This document shows positions 49,103-52,378 of a stretch of 64,000 nucleotides of DNA, in pieces. The stretch is taken from assembly GCA_947040455.1 (NCBI GenBank), contig CAMRBN010000002.1, positions 11,856 to 75,855 on the forward strand, read 5' to 3'. Each line of letters starts with the position of its first letter. Within the stretch, counting starts at the first letter, position 1. Source of the DNA: an uncultured Mycoplasma sp. GTDB taxonomy: Bacteria > Bacillota_I > Bacilli_A > Mycoplasmatales > Metamycoplasmataceae. The position numbers and the translations under genes were made by a program. A model generated the notes under the pieces. The model was given only the letters and a program-made list of their open reading frames with translations. It had not been told where the DNA came from and did not search any database.

Positions 49103-49983
49103 TTATATACTTAAAATCAACTTATTAATTTTATTAAAAATCCTTCTAATGTTTATCGAAATTCTTGGGAATACAATCATTTTTGGATGTTTCCATTTAT
49201 TGCTAAAAATAAAGATATTTCTTAATAATAAGGTAGAGAATACATATACTGCAACTAATGAATAACATAAAATAACAATATATGGGAAAGGCAATTTACC
49301 AAATGTTTCTCAAACTATTCCGTATTGTCCTCCTATTCAATCTCCTTCAACTAATCCTGTTGCATTTCTTGTAACATCAAATTGAGTGACAAAAATCATA
49401 ATGTAGGCAAAGTAAGACAACGGAAAAACAACAACCCCAATAAAACTATTTAAACCAAATCCCTTTGAGTTCATAATAATGATTAAAGATGTAATTAGTG
49501 AAAAAAAATGCATTAAAAAATATGCTTCATTGCCAAATATAAAATCTCAACCATTAGTAACGGTATAAAAATTATTATTGGCACCAATTCCTTCTCACAT
49601 AATTTGTCCAAAAATGGTTATGGCACCTCCAAAAAAAGCTAAAGGAGCAATAACTTTTAAAATATTTCTTTGTCTATCAAATGTTAATAAAAAACAAAAT
49701 AACACTGCAGCAAAAGGACAAAGATCCAGCAAGAAAACTTTAGAAATTTTTACATTGGATTGATTATCGTTTAATGATTGGTTAAATTCACCGTTAACTA
49801 AAGATGTTCCGTTTATCAGGTTAGTTACATCTTCTTGATATCTAATTATTCAAAAATATATAAAAAATATTATTCCTAAAATTGACATTGCGTAATAATT
49901 GTTAAAAACTTTGTCAAAAAAATTATTGAAAAATAAAATACCCATAATGCCAAAGATAGTCGCAATTCCCAAATATAATCCCA
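49103..49983 (-). pseudogene. Polytopic membrane protein, apparently frameshifted at an A6/T6 tract (or N-terminally truncated)
   Basis: The main frame runs from 49103 to an in-frame TAA at 49922-49924, and its first ATG at 49886-49888 has no RBS. An ATG at 49981-49983 with AAGGAAA upstream opens a TM-like peptide MGLYLGIATIFGIMGILFFNNF... in another frame. One extra A in the run 49916-49921 would fuse the two frames. Confidence 0.5.
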
Positions 49984-50044
49984 TAAATTTTAAATTTCCT
50001 TCATTTTGAATTATAACTTTAAAATAAGGAAATTTATTCTCATT

Positions 50045-51637
50045 TTAAGAAAATGAGTTTTCAAAGTCTTCTAAAGTTGATAAATTTTTTCCAGGAAAAA
50101 TTTTAGAATCATATCCATAAATACCAATTATTTTATCTTCGGAATAAATAGTTGTATTATCTACTATAATTTTTGTTATATCAGATCCCTGCCCACTTGC
50201 GTGCAATATCATAACTAAAGTAGAATATGTAGAAAATAGGAATACCTCTTTATTGTTGGTAGGATCAGAAGCAAACACATCGTAAATAGAATAAAATTCA
50301 AAAGGAACTTTATTATCTAAAACTTGTATTCAACTACCATTATCACCAGGATATAAAACACCAATTCTTTTTTGTAAAGTTTCCAAAATATTTTCATCGG
50401 CAGGGTGACCCTTAAACCAAACAATTATTTTATCGCTTTCTGTTGGGTGTTTTGAATTAGCATAATTTTTAATTGCTACCAATGTTTTAATGTTGCTATC
50501 TATTCTTTCTTGAGTGTTCATTTTTCCACCTGAATAAATGTAATTTTTATTATTGTTCATTTGTTGTATATAAGAATCAGGATCAAAATCCTCTTTAATT
50601 TTCAAAATTTTTCTAAGAACTATTTGGTCAAAATCTTTCATAAATGTAATGATGTCCATATTTACAGAATTATATGGAGAGAAAATATCATTTTCTCCAT
50701 ATTTGTAATTTGTATTATTGTCTGGTCTATTCATTTCTGGAATAAAATCCGTTGTAGGAAGAAAGTATTTGGTTCTATTTGGATCTTTAAAGTCGATTGT
50801 CATCAAAGAAGTTAAAAACAAAAGTGCGTTATTTTTTTCTAAAAACACTTCCTTGCTTATTTGTCCATTTTTTACAGCTTGTCTCATTAGTCTGGCATTT
50901 GTATAATTTTTGTCTTCCGTGTTATATAAGTTATTAGAAAGCAAATACGCTTGTTTAAATAATTGACTAAAATATTCTACCGATTTTGTTCCATCTGAAA
51001 AAAAATTCATACTTTCCAATTGACCCAGCAAAATAAATTCATTATATATTTTTAATCTATCTAATGGAGAATTAAAACCTCTAATATACAACGATACTTT
51101 GGCCATATAAGTATAGTCATCAAAATAACCATCAACTTTCACGTTCCCCCCGAATTTATCATAAACATTTTGTAAAAATTCTAAATTATATGAATAAGTT
51201 GCGTTGTTTGACAAAACTGTTTCATTAAATTCATTATAAACAACATTAGGGAATTTTTTGAAGTAATCCATATCCAAATTCAGAAGATTAATAGCATAAA
51301 TTTCAATACGTTTCTCTGGATTTAATTCTAAAATTTTCATAATGTGTGCCACAAAAGAAAATCTTGTTATAACGCTAGCACCATTAATTTTATAAAATAA
51401 AACAGAGTCGGTTTTAGACTTCTCTATAGCATCTTGTAATAAAGCATCATGTGCGTATCTAGTTTTACTAATTTCTTCATCTTCTCTAGTTCAACCCATC
51501 AATTTATTATCGGTTTTAGTAGTTATGTTTTTTTCAATTATAACTTGAGCAAATCCGTAACTGCACAATGCAATTGACGATCCTATAACTAATGTTAAAA
51601 CAGATGGAATTATAAATTTATTCTTATTTTTTATCAT
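50045..51637 (-). CDS. Lipoprotein (about 530 aa) with bacterial sialyltransferase-like (GT80/HP-motif) signature
   Basis: ATG at 51635-51637 follows AGGAAG. The signal peptide plus Cys is MIKNKNKFIIPSVLTLVIGSSIALCS. The frame is continuous through TGA codons at 50330 and upstream. Ordered motifs are FFSDGT, YIYSGG, VWFKGHP, VPFEF and FSTYST. The gene boundaries are solid, but the family assignment is a hypothesis. Confidence 0.6.
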
Positions 51638-51648
51638 ACAATCACTTC

Positions 51649-52020
51649 CTATCAATTCGTTAATAATTTTTTATACATGAAAAAACTAATCAAACTATTT
51701 CAAAAGAAAAAAATTGTTGCTGCAATAAAATATTTTTTAGGTTGACCTGATTTGTTTTTCAAAAATTGTTGATTGTTTAAAATAATTTTTGAAAAACAAA
51801 TAGTTATCAATATCAGTGACACAAGTAAAATACCAGCACAAACTCCCAAAAAACTTATTCATAAAACAGAATTTAAAGGATCTATAAATAATTGCACACA
51901 AACAAATATAAGTAAGCTTGTAAAGAATACATTTAATATAGATAAGTAAATTCCGGTATTTACAACAAAAGAAATGCATTTTTGGCTTTCTTTCTTATTA
52001 TGCTGTTTTTGAATTGTCAT
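51649..52020 (-). CDS. Small three-TM membrane protein (paralog B, about 123 aa)
   Basis: ATG at 52018-52020 lies 1 nt after the stop of the upstream paralog. MTIQKQHNKKESQKCISFVVNTGIYLSILNVFF... It is read through three TGA codons to TAG at 51649. Confidence 0.55.
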
Positions 52021-52021
52021 T

Positions 52022-52378
52022 TTATATTTTTCTTTCTTTTAAATAAATGAAAATGAAAATGAAATAAGATAACAGTTGCAATATTCAAAAAATGAATGCA
52101 GCTATTCAAAAAGAAAATTCATTTTCTTGATTTTTAACTAATGAATTTTTGCTTAAAATTACTGTTGTGTATAATATTATATTAATTACAAATGAAATAA
52201 AAAAAACTACTGATAAAGAAATAAGGGTTGGTGGTCAAAAACCTTGAACAGAATCTAATAAATAGATTGTAGTTCCTGTTACAATTGTTACAAATAAAAT
52301 AAAACATAATATTGATAAAATTATACCGGTAATCAAAGTGGAAATAATTTTTTTATGTGTGTGTGTGTGTGATTTCAT
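52022..52378 (-). CDS. Small three-TM membrane protein (paralog A, about 118 aa) with (CA)8 and A7 tracts at codons 3-10
   Basis: ATG at 52376-52378 lies only about 10 nt downstream of TATAAT (52389-52394, minus strand). MKSHTHTHKKIISTLITGIILSILCFILFV... It is read through TGA codons to TAA at 52022. Confidence 0.55.
52356..52371. repeat. Dinucleotide repeat (TG)8, which is (CA)8 on the coding strand
   Basis: Read directly as tgtgtgtgtgtgtgtg. It is immediately adjacent to a T7 run at 52348-52354. Confidence 0.95.

What the first reader, a model, noticed from the sequence alone, without database searches (positions are those of the whole stretch)
49103..52378. Four-gene minus-strand cluster as a candidate phase-variable surface-modification module
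Four genes are tightly packed, with gaps of 1 to 60 nt. They are small membrane protein A, small membrane protein B, the GT80-like lipoprotein, and a polytopic membrane protein. The cluster is led by a near-leaderless promoter. None has a housekeeping assignment, and the cluster is wedged between rplU-rpmA and truB. Both ends carry slippage-prone tracts: (CA)8 plus A7 in gene A and A6 in the last gene. The last gene contains FLLDLCPF, which is faintly reminiscent of the LPL-x-LC motif of YwaF/TMEM164-type membrane acyltransferases (low confidence). Together this resembles a contingency locus coupling a surface enzyme to membrane partners.
Basis: inference. Interest (0 to 1): 0.7.

Follow-up and report, generated by a model that had tools for sequence, protein, structure and literature searches.

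The report
Switchable sialyltransferase-like surface enzyme module
A wall-less gut bacterium (an uncultured Mycoplasma) carries a three-gene cassette for a surface-anchored enzyme built like bacterial sialyltransferases plus two small membrane partners. Slippery DNA repeats appear to switch this enzyme family on and off, which suggests these bacteria can vary a sugar coat on their surface.

Summary
The four ORFs, their 1/11/60-nt gaps and the (CA)8 tract are real once the window is read with genetic code 4.

Gene C is GT80-like. Its 24 best PDB fold matches are all GT80 sialyltransferases. hhalign to PmST1 gives 92% probability and conserves the catalytic Asp, the His-Pro motif and the ribose-binding Glu. 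It fails the GT80 Pfam model, so it is a new sister family.

The functional unit is A-B-C, not four genes. A and B are paralogous 3-TM proteins, always directly upstream of C, and the cassette sits in at least four genomic contexts. D (DUF5378) has its own promoter and heads the truB operon even where A-B-C lies elsewhere. The YwaF/TMEM164 idea has no support.

The A6-A8 runs are genome background. (CA)8 is unique in 64 kb and reads (CA)5 in a ~97%-identical strain; both alleles are in frame.

Across the family, repeats recur independently. Mycoplasmoides alvi has (AC)10 (ON) and (TG)7 (OFF) in two paralogs. Another lineage shows (AG)6, (AG)7 and (AG)9 alleles, giving ON, OFF and ON proteins.

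ON/OFF switching at this locus and sialic-acid transfer are still inferred.

The parts
52389..52394 (-). TATAAT -10 box of the A-B-C unit. It ends 10 nt before ATG2 (52378) and overlaps ATG1. A second TATAAT lies at 52405..52410.
   Evidence: Read directly from sequence. A -10 box 6-17 nt (mostly ~10 nt) before the gene-A start, with no Shine-Dalgarno, is seen in most orthologous loci. The generic promoter scan is not above shuffle expectation, so this rests on comparative position only.
52022..52378 (-). Gene A: 118-aa (122 from ATG1 at 52390) three-TM membrane protein with an N-terminal cytoplasmic tail MKSHTHTHKK.
   Evidence: Table-4 ORF. Orthologues lie directly upstream of B-C in all 11 loci that include upstream sequence (10, L016). 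No consistent Pfam or NCBIfam family. Hydropathy shows three TM segments.
52356..52371 (-). (CA)8 tract in codons 3-8 of gene A, followed by T and A7 (52348..52354). Candidate slipped-strand switch.
   Evidence: Unique in 64 kb. It reads (CA)5 in the ~97%-identical strain L003, the only indel in the gene. It is absent from the sister species. Simulation: n=5, 8, 11 give full-length A; all other n give 5-19 aa.
51649..52020 (-). Gene B: 123-aa three-TM membrane protein, paralogue of A. Its start lies 1 nt after A's stop.
   Evidence: BLASTP A vs B gives 30% identity. Family profile comparison gives 97% probability, E=1.3e-10, full length. It is always between A and C. No Pfam family.
51642..51650 (-). 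Shine-Dalgarno-like AGGAAGTGA for gene C, overlapping B's stop codon.
   Evidence: Sequence. GGAG/GGAA-type motifs precede C's start in the orthologous loci. The 5-nt GATAG duplication in L003 lies just upstream, which excludes the upstream TTG as C's start.
50045..51637 (-). Gene C: 530-aa membrane-anchored (N-terminal TM or atypical lipobox I-A-L-C), extracytoplasmic GT-B enzyme of the HP/D-G-motif sialyltransferase superfamily. Its closest structures are GT80.
   Evidence: AF2 model with pTM 0.79. The top 24 PDB matches are all GT80, E 1e-10 to 4e-8, then generic GT-B at 1.5e-5. hhalign to PmST1 gives 92%, E=6.4e-7, and aligns D215~D141, H411-P412~H311-P312, E447~E338. No PF11477 hit.
49985..50044 (-). 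C-D spacer holding D's own promoter-like GTTATAAT (50010..50017) and Shine-Dalgarno AGGA (49997..50000), inside a weak hairpin (-10.9 kcal/mol).
   Evidence: aaGTTATAAT plus Shine-Dalgarno is conserved upstream of D in the A-B-C-D, D-A-B-C and rplU<>D arrangements. The fold is from the same call.
49103..49984 (-). Gene D: 293-aa polytopic DUF5378 protein. It is a neighbour, not a module member, and is the first gene of the D-truB-HAD-ribF-rpsO unit.
   Evidence: PF17349 E=1.4e-41. It sits alone between rplU and truB in L015, from the same MAG that has A-B-C elsewhere. It lies upstream of A in L005 and is absent within 6 kb of C in L006-L011.

Best explanation
The real unit is a three-gene cassette, A-B-C. 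It is transcribed from a -10 box placed about 10 nt before gene A's start codon, giving a near-leaderless mRNA.

C is a membrane-anchored, outward-facing inverting GT-B glycosyltransferase. It belongs to a previously undescribed Mollicute family that is a remote sister of GT80 sialyltransferases. It keeps the catalytic Asp (D215), the His-Pro motif that holds the CMP phosphate (H411-P412) and the ribose-binding Glu (E447).

By inference, C transfers a CMP-activated nonulosonic acid (sialic-acid-like), or trans-sialylates from host glycans, onto a surface glycolipid or glycan of the wall-less cell. The donor would be scavenged from the host, as gonococcal Lst does.

A and B are paralogous three-TM proteins that move with C as a block. 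By inference they form its membrane partner, serving as anchor, scaffold or acceptor-presenting subunit.

Expression is gated by simple-sequence repeats. Here a (CA)n tract in codons 3-8 of gene A permits full-length A only at n=5, 8 or 11. Loss of A translation would probably also depress the translationally coupled B.

D (DUF5378) is an unrelated resident of the truB operon, and the cassette inserted next to it.

SHOWN: gene structure, fold and motif conservation, A/B paralogy, A-B-C synteny, D's independence, tract polymorphism, and ON/OFF alleles in homologues.
INFERRED: donor and acceptor, outward topology of this particular protein, the A/B role, and actual ON/OFF switching at this locus.
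For: FOLD AND HOMOLOGY. AF2 pTM 0.79. Foldseek ranks 1-24 are all GT80 (PmST1, P. dagmatis, Photobacterium), followed by a 1000-fold or larger E-value gap. hhalign of the family profile against the PDB-verified PmST1 sequence gives 90.6% over the C-terminal domain and 92%, E=6.4e-7 over 355 columns. That alignment places NFFSDGT on NLYDDGS and WFKGHP on YFKGHP. The motifs DGT, KGHPR, P-x-E and YST are conserved across 32 of 35 divergent family members. Four members hit the GT38 polysialyltransferase Pfam model, and PmST1 itself also hits it weakly. Motif roles come from PMC2169525 and PMC4202792.

SURFACE LOCATION. At least 9 of 35 family members have canonical lipoboxes, and some are fused to BspA-type LRR domains. 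The N-terminus of C is Lys-rich.

MODULE. A-B-C is adjacent and collinear in every locus with upstream sequence, in at least four contexts, with A duplicated once. The A and B HMMs hit only those ORFs. A and B are paralogues.

SWITCH. (CA)8 is unique in the window. A near-identical strain carries (CA)5. Independent repeats in homologues: M. alvi (AC)10 ON, (TG)7 OFF from the SD-ATG, and a neighbouring GT2 with A18 OFF. The P0024 lineage has (AG)6/(AG)9 = 544/546 aa and (AG)7 = 415 aa; this was verified in DNA as the only indel, with the downstream ORF intact.

PRECEDENT. A surface enzyme using a host donor: Lst.
Against: No member of the family matches the GT80 Pfam model PF11477, and a profile search of PDB sequences found nothing. 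The link to sialyltransferases therefore rests on fold, a ~90% hhalign probability and short motifs.

The first acidic residue of the D/E-D/E-G motif is Ser here. PmST1's Arg313 is Ala in this protein, although it is Arg in most relatives. PmST1's His112 aligns to Asp174.

No sialic-acid activation or uptake gene lies in the 64-kb window, and mycoplasmas are not known to sialylate. An extracellular nucleotide-sugar enzyme needs an external donor.

Only two tract alleles are known for this locus and both are in frame. The sister species has no tract at all.

Distant C homologues lack A and B, so the partners are not essential to the enzyme family. A/B function has no direct evidence.
Confidence: 0.62

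Rival explanations
1. One reading: a four-gene operon A-B-C-D in which D is a YwaF/TMEM164-like acyltransferase working with C, with slippage tracts at both ends.
For: The genes are contiguous on one strand with gaps of 60 nt or less, and no strong terminator is predicted. D is adjacent to the cassette in the window clade, L016 and L005. FLLDLCPF is conserved in D's family. D's family is reported from the same Metamycoplasmataceae clade.
Against: In MAG JBOFJK01, D sits at rplU<>D-truB while A-B-C is on another contig. D is on either side of the cassette in different species and absent within 6 kb in five loci. D has its own conserved GTTATAAT plus Shine-Dalgarno in all arrangements. No YwaF/TMEM164-type Pfam hit in 16 members at E<=1. 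Homopolymers are at background density, and D has no A6 on its coding strand.
Confidence: 0.07
2. C faces the cytoplasm and is an ordinary glycolipid or capsule glycosyltransferase using an endogenous nucleotide sugar that is not a sialic acid. A and B are a small heterodimeric flippase or exporter for the product.
For: GT-B enzymes that use nucleotide sugars are normally cytoplasmic. No CMP-sialic acid genes are seen in the window. Paired small paralogous membrane proteins resemble small flippase pairs such as ArnE/ArnF (own knowledge). GT2 genes lie near the family gene in the WFFMC MAGs and in M. alvi. In the tight subfamily the N-terminus is a TM helix without a conserved Cys.
Against: Many homologues have canonical lipoboxes or extracellular BspA-LRR fusions, which places the same catalytic domain outside. 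The Lys-rich N-terminus predicts N-in/C-out. The HP motif plus Glu and the GT80-specific fold match point to CMP-linked donors. A and B have three TM segments, not four, and no EamA/SMR Pfam signal.
Confidence: 0.15
3. The (CA)8 tract is a neutral low-complexity insertion encoding a tolerated His-Thr tail. A-B-C is constitutively expressed in this species.
For: Both known alleles, n=8 and n=5, are in frame. The sister species lacks the tract. The tract lies in a poorly conserved cytoplasmic N-tail. No population data exist, and attempts to find more alleles failed.
Against: A 3-unit length change between strains that differ otherwise only by SNPs shows the tract is hypermutable. Long non-AT dinucleotide repeats are otherwise absent from about 250 kb of these genomes, except at the 5' ends or inside genes of this same family, where OFF alleles are documented. 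Off-frame lengths give immediate stops.
Confidence: 0.3
4. C is a non-transferase: a sialidase-type hydrolase, or a carbohydrate-binding adhesin that merely retains a GT80-like fold.
For: GT80 enzymes such as PmST1 and PdST also have sialidase and trans-sialidase activities. Three family members (P0049, P0050, P0052) have lost the HP motif, and two of them carry LRR fusions, so some paralogues are probably non-catalytic binders. A surface location suits nutrient scavenging.
Against: In the window protein and 32 of 35 relatives the catalytic Asp, HP, Glu and Ser/Thr positions are conserved. That is not expected for a pure binding protein. The sialidase activity of GT80 enzymes is a side reaction of the same active site.
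Confidence: 0.12

Closest known systems
GT80 bacterial sialyltransferases (Pasteurella multocida PmST1/PM0188, P. dagmatis PdST, Photobacterium alpha2,3/alpha2,6-STs; Pfam PF11477)
   Same: Two-Rossmann GT-B fold, with all of the best PDB matches. The catalytic Asp sits in a D-G-S/T turn after a beta-strand, and the FKGHP motif and ribose-binding Glu are aligned. Like PmST1, some members weakly hit the GT38 polysialyltransferase model.
   Different: About 13-15% identity and no hit to PF11477. About 140 extra residues. The motif reads S-D-G rather than D-D-G. PmST1's His112 aligns to Asp and Arg313 to Ala in this protein. C has an N-terminal TM or lipoprotein anchor in a wall-less Gram-positive-derived host, whereas GT80 enzymes make LOS in Gram-negative bacteria. 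It has dedicated partners A and B. Its activity is untested.
Neisseria Lst (GT52), the surface-exposed outer-membrane LOS sialyltransferase that uses host CMP-Neu5Ac
   Same: Same HP/D-E-G superfamily. It is the conceptual precedent for an outward-facing sialyltransferase with no endogenous donor.
   Different: Structurally much more distant (NST 2yk7 ranks 35, E=4e-4). It sits in a Gram-negative outer membrane, is not repeat-switched, and has no A/B-like partners.
Repeat-switched LOS sialyl- and glycosyltransferase contingency genes (Haemophilus lic3A with tetranucleotide repeats, Campylobacter cstII with poly-G; own knowledge, not tested here)
   Same: A simple-sequence repeat in the 5' coding region sets the reading frame of a surface-glycan enzyme. 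ON and OFF alleles coexist in populations, as seen here for homologues.
   Different: Here the repeats are dinucleotides (CA, AC, TG, AG). In the window the repeat sits in a partner gene (A) rather than in the enzyme. The host is a Mollicute and the enzyme family is different (lic3A and cstII are GT42, GT-A fold).
Mycoplasma agalactiae gsmA (GT2 beta-1,6-glucan synthase switched by a poly(G) tract)
   Same: It is the Mollicute precedent for a glycosyltransferase under repeat-mediated ON/OFF control. The A18 tract in the M. alvi GT2 next to the GT80-like paralogues looks like the same device.
   Different: GT2 is a cytoplasmic-face processive synthase, unrelated in fold to C. It uses a homopolymer rather than a dinucleotide tract.

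Membership tests
CAZy GT80 / Pfam PF11477 (PM0188 sialyltransferase) | Significant match to the family sequence model | tested here: not met
   Window C has no Pfam hit at E<=1 other than a spurious DUF2729 match at E=0.11. None of the 35 family members hit PF11477 at E<=0.01. PmST1 hits it at 8e-210. A profile search against PDB sequences gave 0 hits.
CAZy GT80 / Pfam PF11477 (PM0188 sialyltransferase) | GT-B fold most similar to solved GT80 structures | tested here: met
   Foldseek ranks 1-24 are all GT80, E 1.4e-10 to 4e-8, target-normalised TM 0.52-0.64. The next fold class appears at 1.5e-5. The model has pTM 0.79.
HP / D-E-D-E-G sialyltransferase superfamily (GT38, GT52, GT80; Freiberger 2007) | HP motif in the C-terminal domain | tested here: met
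   H411-P412 lies in the invariant VWFKGHP motif and aligns to PmST1 FKGHP (H311). It is conserved in 32 of 35 members.
HP / D-E-D-E-G sialyltransferase superfamily (GT38, GT52, GT80; Freiberger 2007) | D/E-D/E-G motif carrying the catalytic base | tested here: inconclusive
   C has S214-D215-G216. D215-G216 aligns to PmST1 D141-G142 in the extended hhalign, and D-G-T is conserved family-wide. The first acidic position is not acidic, and that part of the alignment has low per-column confidence.
HP / D-E-D-E-G sialyltransferase superfamily (GT38, GT52, GT80; Freiberger 2007) | Ribose-binding Glu and phosphate-binding Ser-Ser (PmST1 E338, S355/S356) | tested here: inconclusive
   E447 (P-F-E) aligns to E338. 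S472-T473 (Y-S-T) is nearly invariant, but hhalign places it 4 residues away from the PmST1 Ser-Ser, so the equivalence is inferred.
HP / D-E-D-E-G sialyltransferase superfamily (GT38, GT52, GT80; Freiberger 2007) | CMP-sialic acid (or other CMP-ulosonic acid) dependent transfer | not testable with these tools
   This needs an enzyme assay. No neuA/neuB-type gene is visible in the 64-kb window, but the rest of the genome was not available.
Simple-sequence contingency (phase-variable) locus | Repeat tract in the promoter or 5' coding region whose unit number sets the reading frame | tested here: met
   (CA)8 lies in codons 3-8 of gene A. Only n=5, 8 or 11 give full-length protein.
Simple-sequence contingency (phase-variable) locus | Repeat number differs between closely related strains | tested here: met
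   (CA)8 in the window against (CA)5 in L003. It is the only indel in the gene, at ~97% identity.
Simple-sequence contingency (phase-variable) locus | Both ON and OFF alleles observed | tested here: not met
   At this locus both alleles are ON, and the searches for more alleles failed. The criterion is met for homologues of C: (AG)6/(AG)9 ON against (AG)7 OFF, and M. alvi (TG)7 OFF.
Bacterial lipoprotein (gene C) | Lipobox with conserved Cys after a signal peptide | tested here: inconclusive
   The window has I-A-L-C25, with an atypical Leu at -1. The Cys is present only in the window clade and replaced by V, I or L in the other orthologues. Distant homologues have canonical boxes.
YwaF / TMEM164-type membrane acyltransferase (gene D) | Sequence or fold similarity to the family | tested here: not met
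   Only DUF5378 is hit, and no related model is hit in any of 16 members at E<=1. The AF2 model is too poor for a fold search (pLDDT 49.6).
Four-gene operon A-B-C-D | Conserved linkage of all four genes in relatives | tested here: not met
   A-B-C is conserved in all loci. D is variable in position or unlinked, and has its own promoter-like element.

The most novel reading that the evidence does not exclude
Mollicutes from several families (Metamycoplasmataceae gut MAGs, cultured Mycoplasmoides alvi and others) carry an undescribed family of outward-facing, repeat-switched, sialyltransferase-like enzymes. These would cap the naked cell membrane's glycolipids or glycoproteins with host-derived sialic or other nonulosonic acids, using scavenged CMP-sugar or trans-sialylation. 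This would be host mimicry in wall-less bacteria that is turned on and off by dinucleotide slippage. In one subfamily a new pair of three-TM proteins (A/B) would be the obligatory membrane partner.
Probability: 0.3. Interest if true: 0.8.

Novelty: new variant of a known kind. Interest (0 to 1): 0.6.

Why it matters
Mycoplasmas have very few recognisable glycobiology genes, yet they glycosylate their surface using scavenged sugars, and the enzymes responsible are unknown (PMC4657876, PMC12453214). This work identifies a Mollicute-wide family of surface-anchored enzymes that is structurally closest to sialyltransferases. About 42 clusters at 50% identity were found among 1.8 billion representative proteins, and all are annotated 'hypothetical'. 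The family is under repeat-mediated ON/OFF control in at least three independent lineages.

If the enzymes sialylate the cell surface with host-derived donors, this would be a new immune-evasion or colonisation mechanism for wall-less bacteria. It would also be a new enzyme source for glyco-engineering. Because one carrier, M. alvi, is cultured, and the sequenced genome has one paralogue ON and one OFF, the hypothesis is directly testable. The work also corrects the unit to three genes and defines two new small membrane protein families tied to the enzyme.

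Tried and rejected
1. The table-11 ORF list was misleading because the organism uses code 4. ORFs were re-called in Python.
2. Sequence-only searches with C (Pfam, NCBIfam, phmmer against PDB, profile against PDB) found nothing useful. Only fold search and hhalign revealed the relationship.
4. D: the AF2 model had pLDDT 49.6 and pTM 0.34, too poor for a fold search, so none was run. The YwaF/TMEM164 idea was tested only by Pfam on 16 members and was negative.
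5. More alleles of the window's (CA)n tract were sought without success. A flank-anchored pattern scan of JGI metagenomes gave 0 hits. Exact look-ups of the window's C, D and rplU proteins were not indexed. The three further contigs carrying the L003-type allele are collapsed by the tool.
6. The protein A homologue search returned only 2 hits because small ORFs are rarely called. Orthologues were taken from the loci instead.
7. A and B were scanned against Pfam via 9 and 8 orthologues. Only scattered sub-threshold hits appeared (holin-X, LPG_synthase_TM, DUF6264) with no consistency, and these were rejected.
8. An Rfam search of 48900..53400 at E<=0.1 gave nothing.
9. The generic promoter and terminator scan is not above shuffle expectation. 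Promoter statements rest on comparative position only.
10. No GT2 homologue lies in the window, so the GT2 neighbourhood seen elsewhere cannot be invoked here.
11. I briefly suspected a mismatch between P0035 and its DNA. It was my miscount, and the translation is exact.
12. Literature searches for the sample accessions and for any Mollicute plus GT80/sialyltransferase report returned nothing relevant.

Full report
**1. What is in the sequence**

The window is ~26% GC. Reading it with the bacterial table 11 breaks every gene at TGA. With table 4 (TGA=Trp), the region 49103..52390 resolves into four clean minus-strand ORFs.
- A: 52022..52390, 122 aa, or 118 aa from the second ATG at 52378.
- B: 51649..52020, 123 aa.
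- C: 50045..51637, 530 aa.
- D: 49103..49984, 293 aa.

The gaps are 1, 11 and 60 nt, and truB starts 8 nt after D. rplU-rpmA and then arcA-arcB-arcC lie divergently upstream. The organism is an uncultured Mycoplasma of the Metamycoplasmataceae; close relatives are MAGs labelled that way.

**2. The tracts**

A/T runs of 6 or more occur at 5.8 per kb across the whole window and 6.7 per kb in the cluster. The A6/A7 tracts therefore carry no information. D has only T-runs on its coding strand.

The (CA)8 tract at 52356..52371 is different. It is the only non-AT dinucleotide repeat longer than 4 units in 64 kb. It occupies codons 3-8 of gene A (MKSHTHTHKK).

**3. Gene C is a remote GT80 relative**

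Sequence-only searches were blank. The close family is tiny: 15 proteins at 50% identity or more, all from Metamycoplasmataceae. It shows invariant DGYFDD, SDGTxSxE and VWFKGHPxD motifs.

An AF2 model (pLDDT 74.9, pTM 0.79) has two Rossmann-like halves. Against the PDB, ranks 1-24 are all GT80 sialyltransferases, at E = 1.4e-10 to 4e-8. Generic GT-B enzymes follow at 1.5e-5 or weaker.

A full HMMER profile search of 1.8 billion representatives widened the family to 42 clusters. The profile of 35 divergent members aligns to PmST1, whose sequence I verified against PDB 2ex0. The probability is 90.6% over the nucleotide-binding domain. In extended mode it is 92%, E=6.4e-7, over 355 columns.

The alignment places these residue pairs:
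- NFFS-D215-G-T on NLYD-D141-G-S. D141 is the catalytic base.
- WFKG-H411-P on YFKG-H311-P. H311 contacts the CMP phosphate.
- P-F-E447 on S-F-E338. E338 contacts the ribose.

These roles are taken from PMC2169525 and PMC4202792. The motifs hold in 32 of 35 members.

Four members hit the GT38 polysialyltransferase Pfam model, and PmST1 also hits it weakly. No member hits PF11477, the GT80 model, which PmST1 hits at 8e-210. C therefore works like a GT80 enzyme and belongs to the HP/D-G sialyltransferase superfamily. It is a new sister family and not a GT80 member.

**4. Where the enzyme sits**

The window protein has a Lys-rich N-terminus, one hydrophobic helix and I-A-L-C25. That Cys is missing in most orthologues, so 'lipoprotein' is doubtful for this protein. 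Across the wider family, however, at least 9 of 35 members have canonical lipoboxes. Others are fused to BspA-type LRR surface domains. The shared catalytic domain is therefore extracytoplasmic.

An outward-facing CMP-sugar enzyme has a precedent in gonococcal Lst, which uses host CMP-Neu5Ac. GT80 enzymes can also trans-sialylate. No sialic-acid gene is present in the window.

**5. The unit is A-B-C, not A-B-C-D**

A and B are three-TM paralogues: BLASTP gives 30% identity and profile-profile comparison gives 97%, E=1.3e-10. They have no known family.

In every related locus that includes upstream DNA, A-B-C is contiguous and collinear, with A duplicated in L007. The A and B HMMs hit nothing else in any fetched DNA.

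The cassette occupies at least four contexts:
- rplU<>A-B-C-D-truB (window clade and L016).
- rplU<>D-A-B-C-truB (L005).
- rpsI-rplM...A-B-C<gpmI, with two GT2 genes nearby (L006, L007, L011; L009 shares the downstream side but has no upstream sequence).
- A different context in L008.

In MAG JBOFJK01, D sits alone at rpmA-rplU<>D-truB-HAD-ribF-rpsO, while A-B-C is on another contig. A conserved aaGTTATAAT plus Shine-Dalgarno precedes D in all arrangements. D is thus the resident first gene of the truB operon.

D is DUF5378. None of 16 family members hits a YwaF/TMEM164-type model, and its AF2 model was unusable. Distant C homologues lack A and B.

**6. The start of the unit**

A TATAAT box ends 10 nt before ATG2. 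A -10 box at a similar distance, mostly ~10 nt and without a Shine-Dalgarno, precedes gene A in most orthologous loci. This supports a near-leaderless mRNA and ATG2 as the start. B starts 1 nt after A's stop, which implies translational coupling. C has its own AGGAAGTGA. The generic promoter scan is uninformative in this AT-rich DNA.

**7. Phase variation**

At this locus, a ~97%-identical strain (L003) carries (CA)5 instead of (CA)8. This is the only indel in the gene. The sister species has no tract. Only n=5, 8 or 11 give full-length A; every other n stops after 5-19 residues. The tract is therefore hypermutable and correctly placed for a switch, but both known alleles are ON.

The family-level evidence is much stronger.
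- In cultured Mycoplasmoides alvi, one paralogue carries (AC)10 in codons 6-12 and is in frame.
- The second M. alvi paralogue carries (TG)7 between its SD-ATG/n-region and its lipobox, and is out of frame. It would be ON at n=5, 8 or 11. The annotated GTG starts lie inside the tract.
- The GT2 gene between these two paralogues has an A18 tract that separates its N-terminal TM helix from the catalytic domain. It would be ON at A17 or A20.
- In another lineage, public assemblies contain (AG)6 and (AG)9 alleles giving 544 and 546 aa, and an (AG)7 allele giving 415 aa, cut just before the HP motif. These match the simulation exactly. At the DNA level the extra AG is the only indel in 1.7 kb, and the downstream ORF is intact.

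Repeat-switched glycosyltransferases have a Mollicute precedent in gsmA.

**8. Verdict**

The finding is best described as a mobile three-gene cassette. It encodes a surface-anchored, sialyltransferase-like enzyme of a new Mollicute family, together with two dedicated small membrane partners. A polymorphic (CA)n tract sits at its head, and the enzyme family as a whole is demonstrably repeat-switched.

The donor and acceptor chemistry, the role of A and B, and actual ON/OFF switching at this particular locus remain inferences. I found no prior description of such enzymes in Mollicutes.

Noticed in passing
L017 382..399 (M. alvi JNJU01000001.1; the same tract is T18 at L012 626..643): An A18 tract lies inside the 5' coding region of a GT2 glycosyltransferase, between its N-terminal TM helix and its catalytic domain. 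The frame is OFF at 18 and ON at 17 or 20. The annotated gene starts downstream of the tract. It resembles the gsmA-type switch.
   Followed up: partly
L012 and L017 (M. alvi, ~12 kb span): Two GT80-like paralogues (one ON, one OFF) and a repeat-bearing GT2 are interleaved with leuS, rpsL-rpsG-fusA and a mannose-6-phosphate isomerase gene. This forms a small cluster of three repeat-controlled glyco-genes in a cultured species.
   Followed up: partly
L006 8963..11381; also L007, L009, L011: In the WFFMC Metamycoplasmataceae MAGs, two GT2 glycosyltransferase genes and a 285-aa gene lie about 2.5 kb downstream of A-B-C, beyond an oppositely oriented gpmI. They may make the acceptor glycan. The window has no GT2.
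   Followed up: partly
L007 4724..5528: Gene A is tandemly duplicated (A-A-B-C) in one MAG.
   Followed up: no
L003 about 3334..3349, equivalent to window about 51638..51650: A 5-nt GATAG duplication lies between B's stop and C's ATG in the near-identical strain. It changes the spacing upstream of C's Shine-Dalgarno sequence.
   Followed up: no
window 49985..50044: The C-D spacer folds into a hairpin (-10.9 kcal/mol; AAAUUUCCUUAUUUU pairs with AAAAUGAAGGAAAUUU). The hairpin encloses D's -10 box and pairs with D's Shine-Dalgarno. It could be a weak terminator for A-B-C or an attenuator for D.
   Followed up: partly
proteins P0049, P0050, P0052 (broad C family): Three family members have lost the HP motif and parts of the D-G-T motif. 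P0049 and P0052 are ~870 aa with long N-terminal extensions, which probably carry the BspA-type LRR_5 domains that two family members hit. They are likely non-catalytic, binding-type paralogues.
   Followed up: no
proteins P0036, P0045 (broad C family): Two members have Ala/Arg/Gly-rich, high-GC-like composition, and P0036 has an A-V-A-C lipobox. The family may extend beyond low-GC Mollicutes.
   Followed up: no
L003 453..1673 compared with window 53316..54536: arcA is only 86.7% identical between the two strains, while flanking genes are 95-100% identical. This suggests recombination or allele replacement at the arginine deiminase gene.
   Followed up: no
window 25009..26235 (-) and 38422..39216 (+); L008 3006..5043: Two membrane proteins in the window look by eye (N-terminal sequence only, not aligned) like the two genes that sit immediately upstream of A-B-C in L008. 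In the window they are 11-27 kb away from the cassette.
   Followed up: no
L013 6611..7081: A distant, TM-anchored C homologue (P0020) is followed by a 156-aa multi-TM protein. This protein is not detectably related to A or B, but could be an analogous small membrane partner.
   Followed up: no
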